NCBI RefSeq assembly: GCF_963506605.1
Contig: NC_083277.1
Coordinates: forward strand, 17,980,001-18,044,000
Direction of reading: 5' to 3'
Source of the DNA: Zootoca vivipara
Lineage: Eukaryota
DNA length: 64,000 nt
The notes under the pieces: generated by a model
The model's input: only the letters and a program-made list of their open reading frames with translations
What the model was told of the DNA's origin: nothing
Databases searched by the model: none
Position numbers and translations under genes: made by a program
Shown: positions 24,654 through 48,951 of the stretch, piece by piece
Position numbering within the stretch: position 1 is the stretch's first letter
Layout: every line of letters starts with the position of its first letter

Positions 24654-25260
24654 CTCCCAAGAAGCAGGTGTCTTTTAATTTCACGACTGCTGTCACCATC
24701 TGCAGTGATCAAGGAGCCCAGGAAAGTAAAATCTCTCACTGCAATGACAAACCTAGACAACATCTTAAAAAGCAGAGACCTCACCTTGCCAACAAAGGTC
24801 CGTATAGTTAAAGCTATGGTTTTCCCAGTAGTGATGTATGGAAGTGGGAGCTGGACCATAAAGAAGGCTGATCACCAAAGAATTGATGCTTTTGAATTAT
24901 GGTGCTGGAGGAGATTCTTGAGTGTCCCATGGACTGCAAAAAAATCAAACCTATCCATTCTGAAGGAAATCAGCCCTGTGTGCTCACTAGAAGGACAGAT
25001 CCTGAAGCTGAGGCTCCAATACTTTGGCCACCTCATGAGAAGAGAAGACTCCCTGGAAAAGACCCTGATGTTGGGAAAGATGGAGGGCACTAGGAGAAGG
25101 GGACGACTGAGGACGAGATGTCTGGACAGTGTTCTTGAAGCTACGAACATGAGTTTGACCAAACTGCGGGAGGCAGTGGAAGACAGGAGTGCCTGGCGTG
25201 CTCTGGTCCATGGGGTCACGAAGAGTCGGACACGACTAAACAACTAAACAACAACAACAA
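24654..25260 (+). mobile_element. BovB 3' fragment with 5' inversion (24654-24742)
   Basis: Sense part from 24741; TSD AATCCATGCTC (24646-24656, 25259-25269). Confidence 0.9.
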
Positions 25261-26021: not shown

Positions 26022-27159
26022 ATATAGAAAAGACTTTGGATGGAGGAGGCAACGACAGCTCTAAATAAAATCTATGAAAAAGCTATAATAATTAATAGAA
26101 ATACCTTGTAACATCAGGTATCCTGGTTTACTGAAATGAGGTTGCCCTTCAAAATAGCAGCATCTCAGTGCTGGAAGCCCTAAGTTGTGTCATCTTAGTT
26201 AGTTAGTTTGTTTTTTACCCATGATGATTTCAGCCTCTTTCTCAGGGGCTAGGGCTGGAAAGTTCTTCAGAACGCACCAGTTTTAGTTCTCCTGGCAGCA
26301 TGGTGAAAATCACCTGAGGAAGAACTAAAGAGCAACATTTGGCATTCCTCAGGCACTTCAAAGTTTAAAATATCTGGTAAGGTATTCTTGGTGACTTTTG
26401 ACTTTAGGGAAATTGGTCCTAAGTCCTTAATTAAGAAGTTGTTGATGGAAACATTGCTCTAAGGAATTCTGTAAGATACGTGATTGCAGTTCTACCTATT
26501 GATGTTTATGCAGAATCCTCTACATTTACCTTTTCATTTCCAGATCATGAAGCTGAAGTGGTATTTGTGCATTTGCTGTGTTACCCAGGGGTACCCTTCA
26601 TTTCCAGCCGTCCTCAAACTGACCTGTCCTTTTGAACCTATTGATTTGGTTGCCTCACCTCAAGAAGGATATTGTAGAGCTGGAAAAGTTTCAGAAAGGG
26701 CAACCGAAGTGATCAAGGGGCTGGAGCAACTCCCTGGTGAGGAAAAGTTGCTGAATTTGATACTTTTTAGTTTAGAGAAAAGGCAAATCAGAGATGACGT
26801 GATGGAAATTTATAAAATTATTAGGCATGGATTTAAAGATATACACATATTTTTTACATTCGTCCTGACTCCACACAAAAGATTCCATTCCTCTAAAGAG
26901 TGTGTGTTGGGTCTATCCAGATTTGTTGGACTTCATCACCCATCATCCCTGATCTAGCTGGCTGAAGCTGATGGGAGTCGGAGTCTAACAACATCTGGAA
27001 GGCTACAGGTTCCCCACATCACATCTGGAAAATAGTTAACGCTCTTACCAAGCCGCTCATATTCCAAAAACCGTGCAAATTGCCAAACGAATTTTTGGGG
27101 AGAATTCTAGGGACAGAACTACCCAAACTGTATAGAAATTTATTAATGTAGGCGACTAC

Positions 27160-27520
27160 AGTGGCACTGTGGGTTAAACCACAGAGTCTAGGGCTTGCTG
27201 ATCAGAAGGTTGGCAGTTCGAATCCCTGCAACGGGGTGAGCTCCCATTGCTCGGTCCCAGCTCCTGCCCACCTAGCAGTTCGAAAGCACATCAAAGTACA
27301 AGTAGATAAATAGGGACCGCTCTGACGGGAAGGTAAACGGCGTTTCCATGCGCTGCTCTGGTTCGCCAGAAGCAGCTTTGTCATGCTGGCCACATGACCC
27401 AGAAGCTGTCTGCGGACAAACGCCGGCTCCCTCGGCCTATATAGCGAGATGAGCGCCGCAACTCCAGAGTCGGACACGACTGGACCTGATGGTCAGGGGC
27501 CCCTTTACCTTTACCTTTAC
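27160..27520 (+). mobile_element. Sauria SINE
   Basis: Full body, CCTTTACCTTTAC tail. Confidence 0.9.
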
Positions 27521-27970
27521 AGTGGCAAGAATGTTATTTGCCCCAAAATGGAAAGAAGAAGAAGTCCCAGCGAAAGAAGAATGGATACAAAAACTTATGG
27601 AATACGCAGAAATGGTGAAATTTGCCAGAAAAATAAGAAATCAAAATAACAAACTTTTTATAAAAGAACGGAAATGGTTTATTGAATGTTTACAAACAAG
27701 CTGTAGACAGATAAGAACATTGGCAGGACTAACCTGCAGTTTTATACATTTAATGTAATAACCTGCAGTTTTATACATTTAAAGTAGATGAGTAAATGAT
27801 TACCGGTAAGTTAATTTGGAATATGCAGAAAATATTTTATAAAAAAAATTAAGGAACCGCAGAAAGAGGGAGAAGGAAGTCAAGTTTTGAAATGTTTAAA
27901 TGATTGTAAAATTATTGAAATGTATAAAATTGAAAATCATAAATAATTTTTTATTTAAAAAAAAAACAAA
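27521..27970 (+). mobile_element. L1/Tx1-like LINE 3' fragment
   Basis: ARMLFAPKWKEEEVPAKEEWIQKLMEYAEM; A-rich tail. Confidence 0.7.
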
Positions 27971-28892
27971 TATGCAAATTGTATTTTGAGGTTCTTGCCT
28001 TAACTTGCCTGCAGGAAAGCTGGTGTATATTCCCACGTACAGTGCTCGATTAAATTTAGTCTTCATTTATCTTAGATAAATCTAAGAACAAGATCTTCAC
28101 ATGGCCCTTAGTGTCCAGTTCATAGAACATAACACAATACCCATATTTAAGATTACCCCTGCTCCACAACCCTCCAAGGTTGGCTGTCTGCTTCTGGAAA
28201 CTGCAAGAGGGGAGTGTGCTTTTCTGCTCTTCTGCTTGGGTCCTCCTCGGGGGATTTCCATAGGTATCAGGTTGGCCACTGTGAGAACAAGACATTAGGC
28301 TATATGGGCCATTGGCTGATCCAACAAGGTCTTCTTATGGTCTTTGTTGTGGTTTTATGCTCTCTATTTACTGCTGAATCAGAGCAAGCATCCATTGGGT
28401 TTTATCCGCATTGATTTTTGCTCTGATGCAGCACTAAAGGGTGAGTTTCTGGAGGGAAGTGCCAGGGTAAAGGAGAAACCGCTTTGACCCATGCCTAGAA
28501 AGAATGGTGTTTCCATGAAATATGGTCTCAGCTTCCTAAACGCTTTTCAGGCAGTGTGTGAAAAGTTCCACTGTAGATAGGACAATGACACGACACAGAA
28601 AATATCTGGACTACTGCCATTAAAACTTGAAAGGGCAATGATAATACTACGACTTTCTTTCTAGATAACTGGGGTGTGGGGGTTGCACCAGGAACAATCA
28701 TCATGGAAATATATACCCATAAATGCTAGTAAAGTTTTAGCCCCTGTATTTACAGCAGATCATCTATGATTGCTGTGTTTTTAATTGAGTTTACTGATGG
28801 AAAACATGGGTGCATAGCTAACAATTATTATTGTTTCGCAATTTCCGAAACTCCAAATATCAACATGATCCAGAAGGGCTCTTCCAACGTTT

Positions 28893-29831
28893 TCACGGAA
28901 GTGCCTTCAGTTTCCTGAACAGTTTCCCTAAGGCTGCTAGTACATCCCGGTTTCTCAGGCTGTATATAAAAGGATTCACAGTGGAGGTGACAATTGTGCA
29001 CAATGCAGCAAAAATCTGGTTCATCTCTGCTGAGTAGGAGGAGGCTGGCCTTAGGTGCCGCAAGATGGCCGACCCATAGAAGATGGCTACTACACACAAG
29101 TGTGACGAACAGGTGCCCAGTGCTTTGTGGCTTCTTTCTGCTGAACGCTTAGCCCTCAGAATCTGCAGGAGGATGGACACGTAGGAGGCCACAATGATGG
29201 AGAAGGGGAACAGAAGCAATAGATGGCTACCAATTAATAACGACACTGTTTCAAAGAGGGATGTATCTGAACAGGACAACTTTATCAGGACGTGGAACTC
29301 ACAGAAAAAATGGTTTATCACATTTGATCCACAGTATGAAAGAGTTAGTAAATAAATTGCTTTCATCAATGCATAATGGAAAGATGAAATCCATACACTG
29401 GCTGACATGACTAAGCATAACTTTCTTCTCATGAGAGCTGGATATTGCAGAGGGCGGCAAATGGCCACATACCTGTCATATGACATGACAGCCAACAGGA
29501 GGCACTCTGCTCCTCCTATGTTCAGAATGAGGAAAACCTGGGCCACACACCCAACCAGAGAAATCGTTTTGGACTCTGTTGCAAAATCCATTGCTGCTCT
29601 GGGAACAATGACGAGGACTTGGCACATATCCATGAAGGACAACTGGCTGAGGAAAAAATACATTGGAGTCTGAAGACTTGAGTCCACCTGGATCACAACC
29701 AGGAGGAGACTATTTCCTAGCAAAGCAACCATGGACATCAATAGGAAGACAGCAAAAGAAATAGCTGGTAGCTTTGTTTGGCTTAGAAAGCCCAGGAGAA
29801 CAAGCTCTGTCCGATTATGTTGCATTTCCAT
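28893..29831 (-). CDS. Olfactory receptor, class II; more divergent 'type C' (OR-4), intact
   Basis: MEMQHNRTEL start, LQTPMYFFL, MSYDRYVAICRPLQY, HFFCE, KALGTCSSHL, NPFIYSLRN; acceptor AG on minus strand at 29867-29866. Confidence 0.93.
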   Translation of the reverse strand: MEMQHNRTELVLLGFLSQTKLPAISFAVFLLMSMVALLGNSLLLVVIQVDSSLQTPMYFFLSQLSFMDMCQVLVIVPRAAMDFATESKTISLVGCVAQVFLILNIGGAECLLLAVMSYDRYVAICRPLQYPALMRRKLCLVMSASVWISSFHYALMKAIYLLTLSYCGSNVINHFFCEFHVLIKLSCSDTSLFETVSLLIGSHLLLLFPFSIIVASYVSILLQILRAKRSAERSHKALGTCSSHLCVVAIFYGSAILRHLRPASSYSAEMNQIFAALCTIVTSTVNPFIYSLRNRDVLAALGKLFRKLKALP

Positions 29832-31233
29832 GTCCCATTTCTCGTTTCGTCTGACTTCCTGAGATCTGAAAATGCAAGGAGACATTTGGGAGGGAAACAA
29901 AGCCACAAAATGCTAGACGTTTCTACACATTCTTTTCTTTTCTTGAATGGCTAATTCACTGAGCATCAACAAATGGACAGCTTCCCCACCCCCCACCCCA
30001 AAAAAAGCCCTACTGATTTATTTATTTTAAAGCATAATTGAATGAAATTTACGTAGAAAATATATTTGCTAATTGCAGTCACCTTTATATAAAATATATA
30101 TACTCAGAGAAGGCCCATTTAAGGTCCATTGATTTCAAAGGATTGTAGCCAATAAGGTTGTCCTGTTTGTGCAAGAAGTTCCACCTGTGCAATAGGATTT
30201 CTTCTCTGTCTCCCCTCATTGTGTTCTGTTCTGGGTCCCCCACCCTACCTTCAGGGATAGATTTGGGAGGTCAAGCAGAGGGGAAGCCTTGTGCTGGCAA
30301 AAGTCTGGAATAAGAATGCCATTTCAAGGAGATATTACCCAAGTCAGATTCCATTGAACCAATATACAAACTGAGTTACCATTCAAGATGCAAACGTCTC
30401 CAGATTTTGGGCTATTTCTCTTCAGCCAACCAAGGTGCACACAAAAATGTGTATATTATGGGAACCTGACCCACTCGCCACAATTATTGGCAGGTGCTGT
30501 TGCTCCTTTGCCTTGCAACTGGTACCCCCTGCTCGCTTGTCAGAAGCAGCCAATGAGCAAGCAGGCAGTGACAGCTTCTTTTCTCCTCCTCCTCGCCTCT
30601 GTTGTAGTTTGGGTGGTCATCCCTTCTGGGGTGGCAGAGCAAGAGGAAGGTGAGCAAGCAGTTTGCAGACATGAACAGCAGGCGTCAATAGCCCCCTCTC
30701 CTGGGATGAGGGGCCTTGGCCCAGGCCAGTCAACCCTCAACACCAGCCTTGCCTTGACCAAAACCATCAGGAAGCCGCTTGCTTGTTCCACATTTCACAG
30801 TCAGCTCAGTTTTATCTCCTTGTACGAAACTCAAAGGAAAAGCTCGTTCACGATTTATATGGATAGATAAAGGAAGAATAATTCTGCTTGAATAACTGGG
30901 GACATGCTATAGTTAAACAAAAGTCTGAGCTGGAACATGCACAGCTGGTGAAAAGATGGGAAATGAATAGAAATTAGGAAAAAGTATGTTATTGTGAGCA
31001 GCAAAGGAAGGAGAGAAAAGAAATAACTGGAAGGGGGTGGGAACCCATCATTTGAATTTGTTTTAAATTTGAATTAATTTGTTGTTTTTATAAAAAAAAA
31101 TCAATTGGCAAATTTAAAAAAAGGAAAAGCTCATTCATACATTCTTCTTTTGTGGAGGATATAAAGCTAGGCTTGCTATCCTAACACTTAACTTTAAACT
31201 TACTTCTGGGTAGACATGGTAGTAACTAGCTAT

Positions 31234-41712: not shown

Positions 41713-43173
41713 TCACATTACTCACACTTTGAATAAGGGGCAGAACAACCTCTCTTTTAAAGAAAAAGGTTCACTTTTGGAGGTGGAATTTTGCTTTTGG
41801 TTCTTAGGTTAAAGGGGAGAGAGGGGACTTTATTAGCAGATTTGGACACAACCAAGGGAAGAAGACTGGTTTGAAGTTGGCCTTGCCAGGTTCCTGTTAC
41901 CTACTAAAATCAAGTGGGCAGGATTGGAAAAGAGATCATTACATATCAGGATAGGTATATCCTTTAGGAATCATGTTGAATAGTATCTAACAGAAGATAC
42001 ATATTGAATTATTTTGTTTTTTGTTTTTGTTTTATCTTTTTCTTTCTTTTTCTTTGCTTGTCCTTTTTGTTTTCTTTTTCTTTCTATTTATAGATGTTGA
42101 GATGTATGATTCTAACTTTTATCTTATTTGATTTATAGAGCAGTTATCAATGTATGTATTTGTTAACTATGTATTTATTTGCATGTTTAGAAAACATAAA
42201 AAATAAAGGGATACAATGCATTACCAATGCAACAAGGAATTATTTGAAATAAAAATGCTGAATAAATATGTAGGAATTGCATTTCATTTTCATTGAAGGG
42301 AAGAAGATTTGCATGAAGTTCCTAAGTATGTTTGTTTAAGATATAAGTGGCCTTCCATATATTTTTGTCACAATGACCCTAAACCTCTTACTTTCCAATC
42401 TGTTTGTTGAAGCTGAAAGAAAAAGTATATTGTTTTAACAATTGCATCTTTCTCTGCATTTTTGAGAATGCTTATTTATTATTTCCATTTATAAGCTGCC
42501 TCTCATTCTGTAGGATCCTAAGGCACTAAATGTAGTGTACACCATAAAGGAATAAACAATTAATTAAATCATCATTTAATTCACATGGACTAATAAAAGT
42601 ATTGATAGCAACTTAGTGCAGCAGCAGGAAAAAAAGAATAGATGGACACAGTGCTTTTTTTTCTTTAAAAAAATGTTTAGGGGTACTCTCATTTTCCTGC
42701 TCATATTAAAATACTGCCCCTCAATGAGGCCAAACTTAAATTCACAAAATGTTTAAGGGTATGTGTACCCCTGCGTACCCCCGGAAAAACTATTCTATTT
42801 AGTCTTATTATAAAGTTATTGTAAGTTTAAGTTAAGTCTGCTGCAATTGGATTTTTTATTGGGCAGTGCCGATCCTGAATGTATTGGATTTCTGACCATT
42901 ATGCTCATTTGGCCTCAGTAGCAGTAAAGCTCTTCTGGATGAAATATAATTGCCTCTGGTCTATTTTTGGGGAAGCCTGCAATGTGTTTAAGTTTTTACT
43001 CTGCTAACTACAGTATACGTCAGAGTTCTGCTCTGGATCAATAAGAGTAGAATTTCAATGACAATCTAATGCCATGCCAACCCTGCTTGCCTCACTGCAG
43101 TCAACAAAATGTTGTGGCCTGTTTCCGCCCACATCTGTGTCCTATGTGTTATTTGTTCTCTACCTGACCTTGA

Positions 43174-44359
43174 ATAGAAGGGGAAGAAATGGAGGCAGTG
43201 AGAGATTTTACTTTCTTGGGCTCCTTGAGGAGGACCCAAGCAGAAGAGCAGAAAAGCACTCTCCCCTCTTGCAGTTTCCAGAAGCAGACAGCCAACCTTG
43301 GAGGGTTGTCGAGCAGGGGTAATCTTAAATACTGTATGGGTATTGTGTTGTGTGCTATGAACTGGACACTAAGGGCCATGTGAAGATCTTGTTCTTAGAT
43401 TTATCTAAGATAAATGAAGTCTAAATTTAATCGAGCACTGTACGTGGGAATATACACCAGCTTTCCTGCAGACAAGTTAAGGCAAGAACCTCAAAATGCA
43501 ATTTGCATATTTGTTTTTAAAATAAAAAATTATTTATGATTTTCAATTTTATACATTTCAATAATTTTACAATCATTTAAACATTTCGAAACTTGACTTC
43601 CTTCTCCCTCTTTCTGTGGTTCCTTAAATTTATTTTTTATATTTTCTGCATATTCCAAATTAACTTACTCTGCATATTCCAAATGAACTCATTGCTCAAC
43701 ATAAAAAAAAAACCCATTACCTCCTGGCAAATAGAAGGGGAAGAAATGGAGGCAGTGAGAGATTTTACTTTCTTGGGCTCCTTGATCACTGCAGATGGTG
43801 ACAGCAGTCACGAAATTAAAAGACGCCTGCTTCTTGGGAGAAAAGCAATGACAAACCTAGACAGCATCTTAAATAGCAGAGACATCACCTTGCCGACAAA
43901 GGTCCGTATAGTTAAAGCTATGGTTTTCCCAGTAGTGATGTATGGAAGTGAGAGCTGGACCATAAAGAAGGCTGATCGCCGAAGAATTGATGCTTTTGAA
44001 TTTTGGTGCTGGAGGAGACTCTTGAGAGTCCCATGGACTGCAAGAAGATCAAACCTATCCATTCTTAAGGAAATCAGCCCTGAGTGCTCCCTGGAAGGAC
44101 AGATCGTGAAGCTGAGGCTCCAATACTTTGGCCACCTCATGAGAAGAGAAGAATCGTTGGAAAAGACCCTGATGTTGGGAAAGATTGAGGGCACTAGGAG
44201 AAGGGGACGTCAGAGGACAAGATGGTTGGACAGTGTTCTCGAAGCCACCAACATGAGTCTGACCAAACGGCGGGAGGCAGTGGAAGACAGGAGTGCCTGG
44301 TGTGCTATGGTCCATGGGGTCATGAAGAGTCAGACACGACTAAACGACAAAACAACAAC
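43174..44359 (+). mobile_element. Chimeric BovB insertion carrying a copy of 27806-28248
   Basis: TSD ACCTGACCTTGA (43162-43173, 44360-44371); BovB 43174-43228 and ~43695-44359. Confidence 0.9.
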
Positions 44360-44757
44360 ACCTGACCTTGAGGAGGGAGTAACCTCAATGCGCCCACCAT
44401 ACAAACACCATTGACCAGCTGGCTACCAGGCCAACTACTATGGGCATAGCCAGGATTTATGTTGGGGAGGCAAGACAGAGCTACCTGCAATTGCGATTGG
44501 TCAGTTCATGGAAGCCACACCTATCGTTTCCTCGGGTTCTCAGCTGCGGCGCTAGAATTGCGCAGCAACCTCATCCAAGTGACTTCAGCGAGCATTTCAA
44601 TTTCAAATATTCTGATTGTTTCTACTTTTAGCTAAGTATTATTATTTTTTATTTACGCGCATGGCAATTACTACAACCTCCCATACTTGCCAAAACAAAC
44701 AGCGAACAGCACAGGGAAACCTTAGGTTGCGGGGTTGGCAGAAGGAAAAGTCTAGAG

Positions 44758-45445: not shown

Positions 45446-46574
45446 AGTGAAATGGAAGTTTCCAGGCACTTATGTAGAGAAGGGGTGGGGAGGGGTGGGG
45501 ATGGGGAGGGGGGATCACTCAGAAGGGTGGTGGAAATGGGTGATTGACTGACTGATAGCTGTTGATGACCGCAAACGACTGCAAATGGTTTTGCATGAAA
45601 AAGCAAGGGTTGAGATGGCTGAAGATCGCTTATCATGTATAATGAGATAAGAACCCGATATCTCTGTTCAAACCAGGTCCCTCCATGGTTTTGAGCTTGG
45701 TGATAAGTTGCAATTCAGCAACTTCTCTTTCCAGTCTATTTCTGAAATTCTTTTGTAGTAAGACAGCTACTTTGAGATCTTGTATAGAATGTCCTGGGAG
45801 ATTGAAGTGTTCTCCTACTGGTTTTTCTGTCTTCTGGTTCCTGATGTCAGATTTATGTCCATTTATCCTTTGGCGTAGGGTTTGGCCTGTTTGTCCAATA
45901 TAGAGAGCTGAAGGGCACTGTTGGCATTTGATGGCATACACAATGTTAGAGGATGAGCAATTAAATAGTCCTGAGATGGTATGTTGGATGTTGTTGGGGC
46001 CAGTAATGGTGTTGTCTGGGTGTATGTGGCAGCAAAGTTGGCATCTGGGTTTATTGCAGGCTCTGGTACCAGTGTCCATGTTAAGTCTGGTGGTTGTATT
46101 ATTGTGGGTGAGGAGTTGTTTAAGATTGGGTGGCTGTCTGTAGGCAATGAAAGGTCTTCCTCCCAGAGCTTGAGAAAGGGAGCGGTCATTGTCCAGGAGA
46201 GGCTGTAGATCTCTGATGATGCGTTGTACTGTTTTAGCTTGGGAGCTGTATGTGATGACTAGTGGTGTTCTGTTATTTTCTTTTTTGGGTCTGTCTTGCA
46301 GCAGGTTCTCTCTAGGTATCTGTCTGGCTCTGTTGATCTGTTGTTTAACTTCATCAGGTGGATATTTTAGTTCTAAAAAGGTTTGCTGTAGATCTCTTAG
46401 GTGAGATTCTCTGTCTGTAGAGTTGGAACAGATGCGGTTGTAACGTAAGGCCTGGCTGTATACGATGGATTGTTTGGTATGTTTGGGATGGTAGCTAGAA
46501 GCATGTAGATATGTTTGTCGGTCAGTTGGTTTTCTGTATAAGGTGGTGTCTATACGTCCATCCTGTATTTTTAT

Positions 46575-47968
46575 TGTTGTTTAGTCGTTTAGTCGTGTCC
46601 GACTCTTCGTGACCCCATGGACCATAGCACGCCAGGCACTCCTGTCTTGCACTGCCTCCCGCAGTTTGGTCAAACTCATGTTCGTAGCTTCGAGAACACT
46701 ATCCAACCATCTTGTCCTCTGTCGTCCCCTTCTCCTAGTGCCCTCAATCTTTCCCAACATCAGGGTCTTTTCCAAGGATTCTTCTCTTCTCATGAGGTGG
46801 CCAAAGTATTGGAGCCTCAGCTTCACGATCCGTCCTTCCAGGGAGCACTCAGGGCTGATTTCCTTAAGAATGGATAGGTTTGATCTTCTTGCAGTCCATG
46901 GGACTCTCAAGAGTCTCCTCCAGCACCATAATTCAAAAGCATCAATTCTTCGGCGATCAGCCTTCTTTATGGTCCAACTCTCACTTCCATACATCACTAC
47001 TGGGAAAACCATAGCTTTAACTATACGGACCTTTGTCGGCAAGGTGATGTCTCTGCTTTTTAAGATGCTGTCTAGGTTTGTCATTGCTTTTCTCCCAAGA
47101 AGCAGGCGTCTTTTAATTTCGTGACTGCTGTCACCATCTGCAGTGATCAAGGAGCCCAAGAAAGTAAAATCTCTCACTGCCTCCATTTCTTCCCCTTCTA
47201 TTTGCCAGGAGGTGATGGGACCAGTGGCCATGATCTTGGTTTTTTTGATGTTGAGCTTCAGACCATATTTTGCGCTCTCCTCTTTCACCCTCATTAAAAG
47301 GTTCTTTAATTCCTCCTCGCTTTCTGCCATCAAGGTTGTGTCATCTGCATATCTGAGGTTGTTGATATTTCTTCCAGCAATCTTAATTCCGGCTTGGGAT
47401 TCATCTAGTCCAGCCTTTCGCATGATGAATTCTGCATATAAGTTAAATAAGCAGGGAGACAATATACAACCTTGTCGTACTCCTTTCCCAATTTTGAACC
47501 AATCAGTTGTTCCATATCCAGTTCTAACTGTAGCTTCTTGTCCCACATAGAGATTTCTCAGGAGACAGATGAGGTGATCAGGCACTCCCATTTCTTTAAG
47601 AACTTGCCATAGTTTGCTGTGGTCGACACAGTCAAAGGCTTTTGCATAGTCAATGAAGCAGAAGTAGACGTTTTTCTGGAACTCTCTAGCTTTCTCCATA
47701 ATCCAGCGCATGTTTGCTATTTGGTCTCTGGTTCCTCTGCCCTTTCGAAATCCAGCTTGCACTTCTGGGAGTTCTCGGTCCACATACTGCCTAAGCCTGC
47801 CTTGTAGAATTTTAAGCATAACCTTGCTAGCGTGTGAAATGAGCGCAATTGTGCGGTAGTTGGAGCATTCTTTGGCACTGCCCTTCTTTGGAATTGGGAT
47901 GTAGACTGATCTTCTCCAATCCTCTGGCCATTGCTGAGTTTTCCAAACTTGCTGGCATATTGGGTGTA
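46575..47968 (-). mobile_element. BovB (RTE-clade LINE), 5'-truncated, open RT frame, nested in Penelope
   Basis: WPEDWRRSVYIPIPKKG, FIDYAKAFD, GVRQGCILSP, LRYADD; (CAA)n tail; 10-bp TSD GTATTTTTAT at 46565-46574 and 47969-47978. Confidence 0.95.
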
Positions 47969-48951
47969 GTATTTTTATAGTAGTGTCCAAAAAATGTATT
48001 TCTTGCATAGATTGGTTCATTGTTAGGTTGATGGTGGGGTGAAAGTCATTGAATGTCTGGTGGAAGGTTTCCAGGGTCTGTTGTCCATGTGTCCAGATAA
48101 TAAAAATATCGTCAATGTATCGCAGGTACAGGAGAGGTTTGAGTGGGTAGGAGTTAAGGAAACGTTGTTCTAAATCTGCCATGAAGATGTTGGCATACTG
48201 TGGGGCCATGCGGGTGCCCATGGCTGTGCCGCTGATCTGGAGGAACAGGTCATCACCAAATTTGAAGTGGTTGTGGGTAAGGACAAAGTGGCAGAGTTTG
48301 GTAGCAAAGTCCGCTGTGGTTTTATCTGAAATGGTGTTCCTTATGGCTTGTAAACCATCATTGTGTGGGATGTTGGTATATAGAGATTCCACATCCATAG
48401 TGGCTAGTATAGTATTGTTAGGAAGATTGTTCAAATATCTAACAGAATTGACAGTGAAATCCCGTGCGAACATTCCCGGGGAGTGAGTTTCATTGAACTC
48501 AATGATACTTACTTCCGAGTAGACATGCACAGCTCAATATGAAGCTTAAAATCTGCAAATGCAAATCTTCCCACACACTTACCAGACTCACACACGCAGC
48601 CTGATCAAGCACCACGTGGCACTCAAAAGCTCGCACGGAGTATCTTCAAGAGCAAATTGCCTTTAAAAGAATAAATGATTTTAGAACACCTCCCTCCTCT
48701 CGGGAGTTCTGCACTGAATCTGAAGAACAGGGCGCTGCACCGCAACCCCGATGCACAGCGAGGTCGATGCGTGTGTGCGAGCGCCTTGCCGCTTTGACAG
48801 AAGGAAGGCGGCTGGCGCTTCTCTGCCTCTGCAAAAGATCGGCATAAAACGCAAAGGAAATACCTGGAAACTAAATGCGGATGGAGGCACGTATACCCGT
48901 GAATTAGCATACTGCTAATTAGGATTCAGCTAGGAAGCTACAAGCGTCAGT

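What the first reader, a model, noticed from the sequence alone, without database searches (positions are those of the whole stretch)
43162..44371. BovB retrotransposition event that captured ~440 bp of DNA from 15 kb away, in the sense of the OR-4 3' region
Seen: one 12-bp TSD (ACCTGACCTTGA) encloses BovB 55 nt + near-identical inverted copy of 27806-28248 (at 43227-43668) + a 22-nt stutter + BovB 3' end that repeats the same 55 nt. The captured piece spans an L1-tail/unique boundary so derives from this locus (or a close paralogue), lies 0.65-1.1 kb downstream of the OR-4 stop, and is co-oriented with both OR-4 and BovB. The junction CCTTGAGGAGG (43223-43233) also equals the target-site sequence at 44366-44376. 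Inference: multiple template switches during TPRT onto either a germline OR-4 3'UTR transcript or spatially proximal DNA; a LINE-driven route to local inverted repeats that could seed OR-cluster rearrangement.
Basis: partly seen in the sequence, partly recalled or inferred. Interest (0 to 1): 0.7.

Follow-up and report, generated by a model that had tools for sequence, protein, structure and literature searches.

The report
Jumping gene copied DNA 15 kb away
A BovB-type jumping gene in a reptile's smell-receptor cluster carries, inside its own insertion scar, a flipped 443-base copy of DNA lying 15 kb away; it was likely stitched in as the cut chromosome end hopped between nearby DNA templates, a long-range case of a known repair by-product.

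Summary
Real and correctly mapped. One 12-bp TSD encloses 55 nt of BovB, an inverted 94%-identical copy of 27806-28248, a 22-nt stutter and the BovB 3' body. The segment has only two full-length places in the genome, and both versions occur in another sample. The junction 11-mer equals the target site (62 of 400,000 random joints). Best reading: in one integration the upstream target end was extended in turn on the new cDNA, the target's other end and chromatin 15 kb away. The OR-4 RNA idea stays possible, since the source yields a few RNA reads, but there is no poly(A), and the opposite orientation would equally be 'sense' to an L1 remnant. The spacer is not inverted and better repeats lie nearby, so the rearrangement claim is weak. 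Templated LINE 5' extras are known; the 15-kb reach is unusual (1 of 34 TSD-bearing copies in 1.66 Mb). More striking by-catch: 29 BovB copies carry their own 5' end inverted, always stopping at nt 190-208. Three look-ups found neither in the scan's earlier notes.

The parts
43162..43173 (+). Left copy of the 12-bp target-site duplication
   Evidence: Exact match to 44360-44371; only two copies in the window
43174..43228 (+). 55-nt same-sense BovB piece, starting 37 nt inside the 5' end of this insertion's own BovB body; ends in CCTTGA like the TSD
   Evidence: Identical to 43731-43785
43223..43233 (+). Junction 11-mer equal to the target site (6 nt TSD end + 5 nt right flank); its last 7 nt also equal the start of the captured segment
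   Evidence: Also at 44366-44376 only; 62 of 400,000 random joints
43227..43668 (+). Captured segment: inverted copy of 27806-28248 (end of an old SINE-like piece, unique DNA, about 160 nt of antisense L1-type 3' tail)
   Evidence: 94.4% identity; two full-length places in G000; copy-type contig in run X3
43669..43693 (+). 22-nt stutter re-copying the end of the captured segment, plus 3 nt
   Evidence: 20 of 22 identical to 43645-43666
43694..43712 (+). 5'-most BovB fragment; its A10 run is BovB-derived, not a poly(A) tail; followed by a deletion of about 20 nt
   Evidence: Matches the reference copy 20 nt upstream of the body start
43713..44359 (+). 5'-truncated BovB-type (RTE) LINE body with (CAA)n tail
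   Evidence: 97.4% to the copy at 47219-46574, whose ORF has RVT_1; 7 private changes in 637 nt against 63 other copies
44360..44376 (+). Right TSD copy and the first 5 nt of right flank (GGAGG)
   Evidence: X1 contig 44333-44469 without differences
27806..28248 (-). Source segment, left intact; the repeats that it cuts continue on both sides here and not at the copy
28893..29885 (-). Olfactory receptor ORF ('OR-4'), 330 aa; the source lies 0.65-1.1 kb past its stop
   Evidence: 7tm_4, E 1e-43
27040..27968 (+). Old truncated L1-type remnant (label recalled from its translation; no Pfam hit) interrupted by a SINE at 27161-27516; its tail lies in the captured segment
   Evidence: left end approximate

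Best explanation
A single BovB insertion, bounded by one 12-bp duplication, holds a patchwork 5' junction that likely formed when the upstream cut end of the chromosome was extended in turn on several nearby DNA templates before joining the new cDNA. Shown: the order of pieces, their sources and the short overlaps at the joints. Inferred order: (1) TPRT makes about 670 nt of cDNA; (2) the upstream 3' end primes 37 nt inside the cDNA end and copies 55 nt until it again ends in CCTTGA; (3) it re-pairs with the other half of the target site through those 6 nt and gains GGAGG from the right flank; (4) the resulting GAGGAGG pairs with the same 7-mer at 28242-28248, 15 kb away in cis, and 443 nt are copied; (5) it slips back for 22 nt; (6) it joins the cDNA end, skipping about 20 nt. 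The overlaps read the same if the chain ran the other way from the cDNA end, so the direction is inferred. The polymerase (BovB RT or a host enzyme) is not identified.
For: Junction 11-mer equals the target site, which must be DNA. The 55-nt piece comes from beside this insertion's own truncation point. Sibling BovB junctions in 1.66 Mb show the same habits on a small scale: own 5' end repeated in 3 copies, target flank re-copied with apparent run-on into the right flank in 1 clear and 1 doubtful copy. The source is in cis and unique, as expected for a spatial neighbour and not for a free mRNA. No poly(A); the weak TATAAA near the captured end is absent from the copy and from all 12 other L1 tails printed, so it arose later at the source. 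Both parts have aged alike: 5 copy-derived changes in 274 nt against 7 private changes in 637 nt of BovB. Zebrafish LINE 5' extras are reported to be templated from flanking and LINE DNA (PMC4760211, passages), and L1 templated insertions from nearby genomic DNA are reported.
Against: 443 nt is far above the usual size of polymerase-theta templated insertions (<25 bp, PMC12426944 passages) and the source is 15 kb off, not within 15 bp. The source is present in an RNA run while the target flank is not, which fits an RNA template too. BovB here often primes the upstream end on RNA (29 inverted copies), so RNA-templated extension is common for this element. GAGGAGG occurs at 34 places in the window, so the overlap does not explain the choice of source. 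No listed contig bridges the left junctions.
Confidence: 0.6

Rival explanations
1. One reading: BovB reverse transcriptase left its own RNA during first-strand synthesis, copied a nascent, chromatin-tethered OR-4-sense transcript over 27806-28248, then the target site and BovB RNA again.
For: Same sense as OR-4 and BovB; same-sense chimeras are the expected product of RT template switching (PMC13174262 discussion part 1; PMC11702581 section 7). RNA run X22 covers the segment at depth about 1-5 with source-type letters, and 3 reads run on into the source flank.
Against: No poly(A) or RNA end at the entry point; the only AATAAA is about 145 nt inside. Strand and tissue of the RNA are unknown: both first-mate orientations occur. 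One switch still needs target DNA. A mature mRNA would have no reason to come from 15 kb away.
Confidence: 0.2
2. Two steps: an ordinary BovB insertion first, then a later break at its 5' junction repaired by templated synthesis.
For: LINE-free local copies exist in the region: an 89-nt inverted copy 476 bp away, a 99-103-nt inverted copy 873 bp away and a 326-nt direct copy 3.5 kb away.
Against: Needs a second break exactly at the junction with the TSD left whole; both parts have aged alike; at integration the free ends and the single-stranded TSD exist anyway.
Confidence: 0.1
3. Twin priming on a second RNA: the upstream end primed, through 7 nt, on a plus-strand RNA of the source (L1-remnant sense, antisense to OR-4).
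For: Upstream-end priming on RNA is frequent for BovB here (29 inverted 5' ends, 24 with a TSD of 10-13 bp). Some X22 pairs have either orientation.
Against: The L1 remnant is old and truncated, with no promoter in view; the 55-nt piece and the stutter still need DNA templates.
Confidence: 0.07
4. Assembly error, or the segment is a dispersed repeat with a closer source elsewhere.
For: No listed contig bridges the left junctions; X1 and X5 contigs join copy-type letters to 40 unlike letters.
Against: Source and copy differ at 14 positions and 3 gaps; X3 holds both versions at similar depth (43 and 51); only two full-length places in the genome; the TSD is perfect.
Confidence: 0.03

Closest known systems
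L1 'templated insertions' in human tumours (bioRxiv 10.1101/2024.08.27.596794, section 4 read)
   Same: [quoted passage not shown]
   Different: There 22 cases, typically under 250 bp and within 15 bp of the site, somatic, L1. Here 443 bp from 15 kb, germ line, RTE clade, with six traceable pieces. The supplement with the size and distance spread could not be seen.
[quoted passage not shown]
   Same: Extra templated pieces at the reciprocal (upstream) DNA end before ligation.
   Different: Induced L1 in cultured cells; distances are in supplementary figures that I did not see.
5' extra nucleotides of zebrafish LINEs, 'annealing' pathway (PMC4245944 parts 2-3 of 5; PMC4760211 passages)
   Same: Extras templated from flanking genomic and LINE DNA at 5' junctions.
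   Different: Templates adjoin the junction; no remote donor in the parts read.
Polymerase-theta templated insertions (PMC12426944, passages)
   Same: Iterative patchwork of short pieces primed by minimal pairing.
   Different: Generally under 25 bp and from the break flanks; the 443-nt tract needs a more processive step.
Templated sequence insertion polymorphisms, class 1 and 2 (PMC5110952, passages)
   Same: A copy of a distant segment with the donor left intact.
   Different: Class 1 has a poly(A) tail behind a signal, class 2 has no TSD; this insert has a TSD, no poly(A) and a LINE body.
LINE-1 chimeras with RNAs (PMC13174262, abstract and discussion part 1 of 2)
   Same: A non-LINE piece 5' of a LINE inside one TSD.
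   Different: Those are small RNAs, Alu or spliced first exons from elsewhere; here an unspliced local segment with no RNA hallmark.

Membership tests
BovB / RTE-clade LINE insertion by TPRT | TSD of 7-15 bp, often starting with A | tested here: met
   12 bp, starts with A; range from PMC6007223 passages
BovB / RTE-clade LINE insertion by TPRT | (CAA)n tail and 5' truncation | tested here: met
BovB / RTE-clade LINE insertion by TPRT | Family encodes a reverse transcriptase | tested here: met
   RVT_1, E 2.7e-55, in the 97%-identical longer copy; none in the short body itself
BovB / RTE-clade LINE insertion by TPRT | Match to a named repeat-library consensus | not testable with these tools
LINE templated insertion (genomic template) | Non-LINE genomic segment duplicated inside one TSD, donor intact | tested here: met
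LINE templated insertion (genomic template) | Typical size under 250 bp and donor within 15 bp | tested here: not met
   443 bp, 14,979 bp away; stated as typical, not as a definition. The 5-nt and 55-nt pieces do fit
LINE templated insertion (genomic template) | Template was DNA, not RNA | tested here: inconclusive
   No intron in the segment to tell; target-site piece is DNA; source is weakly present in RNA
LINE-mRNA chimera by RT template switch | Same sense as the LINE | tested here: met
   Holds if the RNA is OR-4 sense
LINE-mRNA chimera by RT template switch | RNA hallmark: poly(A), splice junction or RNA end at the joint | tested here: not met
   None; the A10 run is BovB-derived
Class 1 TSIP or 3' transduction | Poly(A) 10-30 nt behind a signal | tested here: not met
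   No A or T tail at either end of the segment
Class 2 TSIP | No TSD | tested here: not met
   12-bp TSD
Polymerase-theta end joining | Dependence on polymerase theta | not testable with these tools
   Needs a knockout assay

The most novel reading that the evidence does not exclude
BovB's own protein holds the upstream cut end and uses it as a second primer: by default at a fixed site at nt 190-208 of its RNA (29 of 29 inverted copies seen, plus one solo 5' piece with a 13-bp TSD), and at times on its cDNA end or on neighbouring open chromatin or nascent RNA, as here. RTE LINEs would then have a built-in second-end priming site at the 5' UTR and act as copy-paste agents for DNA tens of kb from the landing site.
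Probability: 0.35. Interest if true: 0.75.

Novelty: new variant of a known kind. Interest (0 to 1): 0.45.

Why it matters
How the 5' end of a LINE is joined to the chromosome is still open. This insertion is an unusually legible germ-line record of that step: six pieces, five with a traceable template, one of them 15 kb away. It shows that an end made by an RTE-clade LINE can reach and copy distant cis DNA and still leave a clean TSD. As a single neutral event its weight is modest and it has not rearranged the receptor cluster. The by-catch matters more: a fixed second priming site near the BovB start codon would make second-end handling directly testable with purified protein or a reporter.

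Tried and rejected
Dispersed repeat or closer paralogue: rejected (the tool warns that common words are skipped and only top candidates scored). L1 3' transduction and poly(A) capture: rejected, no tail at either end. Error-prone copying of the captured piece: 4 of 5 copy-derived changes are transversions, but so are 5 of 7 in the BovB body, so no signal. Inversion of the 15-kb spacer: flanks are unrecombined. Empty site in the relative (X11): one contig ends at 43165, no joint listed, depth low; inconclusive. The first lay was swamped by BovB contigs. No RNA holder was listed in the run index; not used as evidence. Only 1 of 3 raw RNA runs was laid, about 6% of it. The 195-nt extras first looked like captured host DNA and proved to be BovB's own 5' end. 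Two long 'extras' among the 34 (129 and 793 nt) rest on 10-bp matches that 8 of 260 control flanks also reach, and were treated as chance. No Rfam match in the BovB 5' end. Literature: 7 searches ran; none listed a long-range BovB capture or fixed-endpoint 5' UTR inversions, but most subscription papers are not in the library.

Full report
OBSERVATION. The 12-mer ACCTGACCTTGA occurs only at 43162 and 44360; the 55 nt at 43174-43228 equal 43731-43785; the 11-mer CCTTGAGGAGG occurs only at 43223 and 44366. 43227-43668 aligns to 28248-27806 at 94.4% with 14 mismatches and 3 gaps. The stutter at 43669-43690 matches 43645-43666 at 20 of 22. I add that BovB sequence resumes at 43694, that the A10 run there belongs to BovB, and that about 20 nt are skipped before 43713. 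The neighbouring ORF at 28893-29885 is an olfactory receptor. The names BovB, L1 and SINE are recalled; what was tested is RVT_1 in the longer sister copy, the (CAA)n tail and the TSD length typical of RTE elements (PMC6007223, passages).

SOURCE AND DIRECTION. In the window's genome (1.44 Gb) the segment has two full-length places among 40 listed hits; the other 38 cover only the 135-160-nt repeat tail. With the tail left out, 2 of 19 hits are full length and 17 cover 35-62 nt. At 27806 and 28248 the cut repeats continue at the source and stop at the copy, so 27.8-28.2 kb is the donor.

IS IT REAL AND HOW OLD. Run X3 holds a contig identical to the copy over 43280-43384 (depth 43) and one with the source's letters and 5-nt gap (depth 51). 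X1 has a contig over 44333-44469 without differences, with 27 BovB letters, just under the tool's 31-letter bridging rule; X1 may be the assembly's own sample. X1 and X5 show copy-type letters on contigs that run on for 40 unlike letters, which I read as collapsed source and copy; a source allele close to the copy is the other reading. No listed contig bridges the left junctions. A related organism (X11) shares the source letter at 5 sites and the copy's state at the 5-nt gap and at 43472, so both loci have mutated since the event: 5 copy-derived changes in 274 nt against 7 private changes in 637 nt of BovB. These are compatible with one event. Whether X11 has the empty site could not be seen.

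MECHANISM. The telling joint is 43223-43233. The 55-nt BovB piece ends in the same 6 nt as the TSD, the next 5 nt are the target's right flank, and the last 7 nt are also the start of the donor. Random joints give such an 11-mer in 62 of 400,000 trials. The simplest account is one growing strand that starts at the upstream target end and changes template five times: cDNA near its end, the other half of the target site, the donor, the donor again, the cDNA end. The overlaps are symmetrical, so synthesis from the cDNA side cannot be excluded. GAGGAGG is at 34 places in the window: overlap permits the jump, and closeness or open chromatin must have chosen the donor (inference).

DNA OR RNA. Against the OR-4 transcript: no poly(A); the only AATAAA between the OR-4 stop and 27700 is at 27955, about 145 nt inside the captured end; the TATAAA at 27841 is missing from the copy and from the 12 other L1 tails printed; and either orientation would have been 'sense' to something, since the L1 remnant faces the other way. 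For it: RNA run X22 (6% read, tissue unknown) covers 43242-43465 at depth about 1-5 with source-type letters, 3 reads continue into the source flank, and the target flank 43050-43161 has none; both first-mate orientations occur. Transcription of the donor fits a nascent RNA template and fits DNA opened by transcription. I give DNA templating 0.6, first-strand switch to OR-4-sense RNA 0.2, two steps 0.1, priming on plus-strand RNA 0.07, artefact 0.03.

HOW COMMON. In 1.664 Mb around the window, 81 BovB matches gave 65 with a 3' end, and 34 of these passed the TSD thresholds (control: 8 of 260 shifted flanks scored 10 or more, 2 of 260 scored 11 or more). 16 of the 34 have 8 or more extra letters: own 5' end repeated (3), BovB inverted (2), BovB's far 5' end (4), target flank re-copied (2, one doubtful), two probable chance calls, two short unexplained or query-limited cases, and this one. 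Only this one has a remote non-BovB donor. A self-comparison gave 111 low-copy pairs; I inspected 19 short ones chosen by hand, and no other lay inside a BovB TSD. So patchwork junctions are routine for this element and the long reach is rare, with a wide margin on 1 of 34.

REARRANGEMENT CLAIM. A crossover between the two copies would swap their inner flanks; the sequence shows the unswapped state. The window also has a 646-bp, 97.4% inverted BovB pair 2.2 kb apart and many SINE and receptor pairs. The new repeat adds little.

BY-CATCH. The 195-nt extras are the element's own 5' end: the same sequence starts long copies with an open ORF. It is found inverted in front of short 3' pieces in 20 of 30 loci and, with a query of nt 1-93 that cannot favour an endpoint, in 9 of 19. 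All 29 inverted pieces stop at nt 190-208, and 24 have a TSD of 10-13 bp directly beside that end. One solo piece has a 13-bp TSD. This looks like twin priming at a fixed site far from the 3' piece, unlike the L1 pattern in which the inverted part adjoins the rest with short gaps. It shows that the upstream end at BovB sites is an active primer. Searches listed no description; Rfam has no match.

COMPARISON AND VERDICT. Templated pieces at LINE 5' junctions are known from L1 in tumours (22 cases, typically under 250 bp and within 15 bp), induced L1 and zebrafish LINEs; patchwork templating is the mark of polymerase-theta joining, though usually under 25 bp. [quoted passage not shown] Supplements of the two preprints, with the size and distance spread, were not seen and could hold longer-range cases. 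The scan's earlier notes held nothing on this; one unchecked note on Penelope elements in the same genome also argues that either cut end can start an insertion. Verdict: real, a long-range variant of a known kind, interest 0.45 with the by-catch counted.

Noticed in passing
L181-L229 (G000, many contigs); also G000:C2:18473063 and C2:18492828: BovB copies built as TSD + inverted first ~200 nt of the element + a 3' piece of variable length + TSD. 20 of 30 loci with a 195-nt query and 9 of 19 with a query of nt 1-93 only (one of the 19 is the query's own locus); all 29 inverted pieces stop at nt 190-208, around the ORF start; 24 have a TSD of 10-13 bp. Both sets are top-scoring hits, not a census. 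Not listed in literature searches.
   Followed up: partly
L210 (and L225): BovB nt 1-203 alone, without a 3' piece; L210 has a 13-bp TSD that overlaps BovB nt 199-203, as if priming began there.
   Followed up: partly
G000:C2:17844455, 17745214, 18559361; L205, L228, L229: Forward bipartite BovB copies (5' end joined to a 3' piece), the known Bov-A-like layout (PMC5786205 passages).
   Followed up: partly
window 24654-25254: BovB with an 84-nt 5' inversion inside an 11-bp TSD, an ordinary twin-priming pattern.
   Followed up: yes
window 46574-48473: A BovB sits, with a 10-bp TSD, inside another RT element (Penelope-like, label recalled), in frame as one 630-aa ORF; 470 bp of the host element are 100% identical to G000:C2:17953409-17953878, which shows the empty site.
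   Followed up: partly
G000:C2:17376577/17377141, 17591922/17592897, 18657909/18661770: Short local copies without a LINE body: 89 nt inverted at 476 bp, about 100 nt inverted at 873 bp, 326 nt direct (99.7%) at 3.5 kb; possible templated repair scars.
   Followed up: partly
window 27161-27946 and G000:C2:18631772-18632524: The same SINE + L1-tail arrangement recurs at a second locus at 80.5% identity: an old composite or a shared target site.
   Followed up: no
window 28141-28147 region of the source (copy 43330-43334): The 5-nt gap is a deletion at the source, seen in X3 but not in the X22 reads, so it appears polymorphic in the species.
   Followed up: partly
G000:C2:17082811/17087541, 17089220/17092420, 17846636/17851702: Pairs of 295-451-nt direct repeats 3-5 kb apart, LTR-like; seen only.
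   Followed up: no
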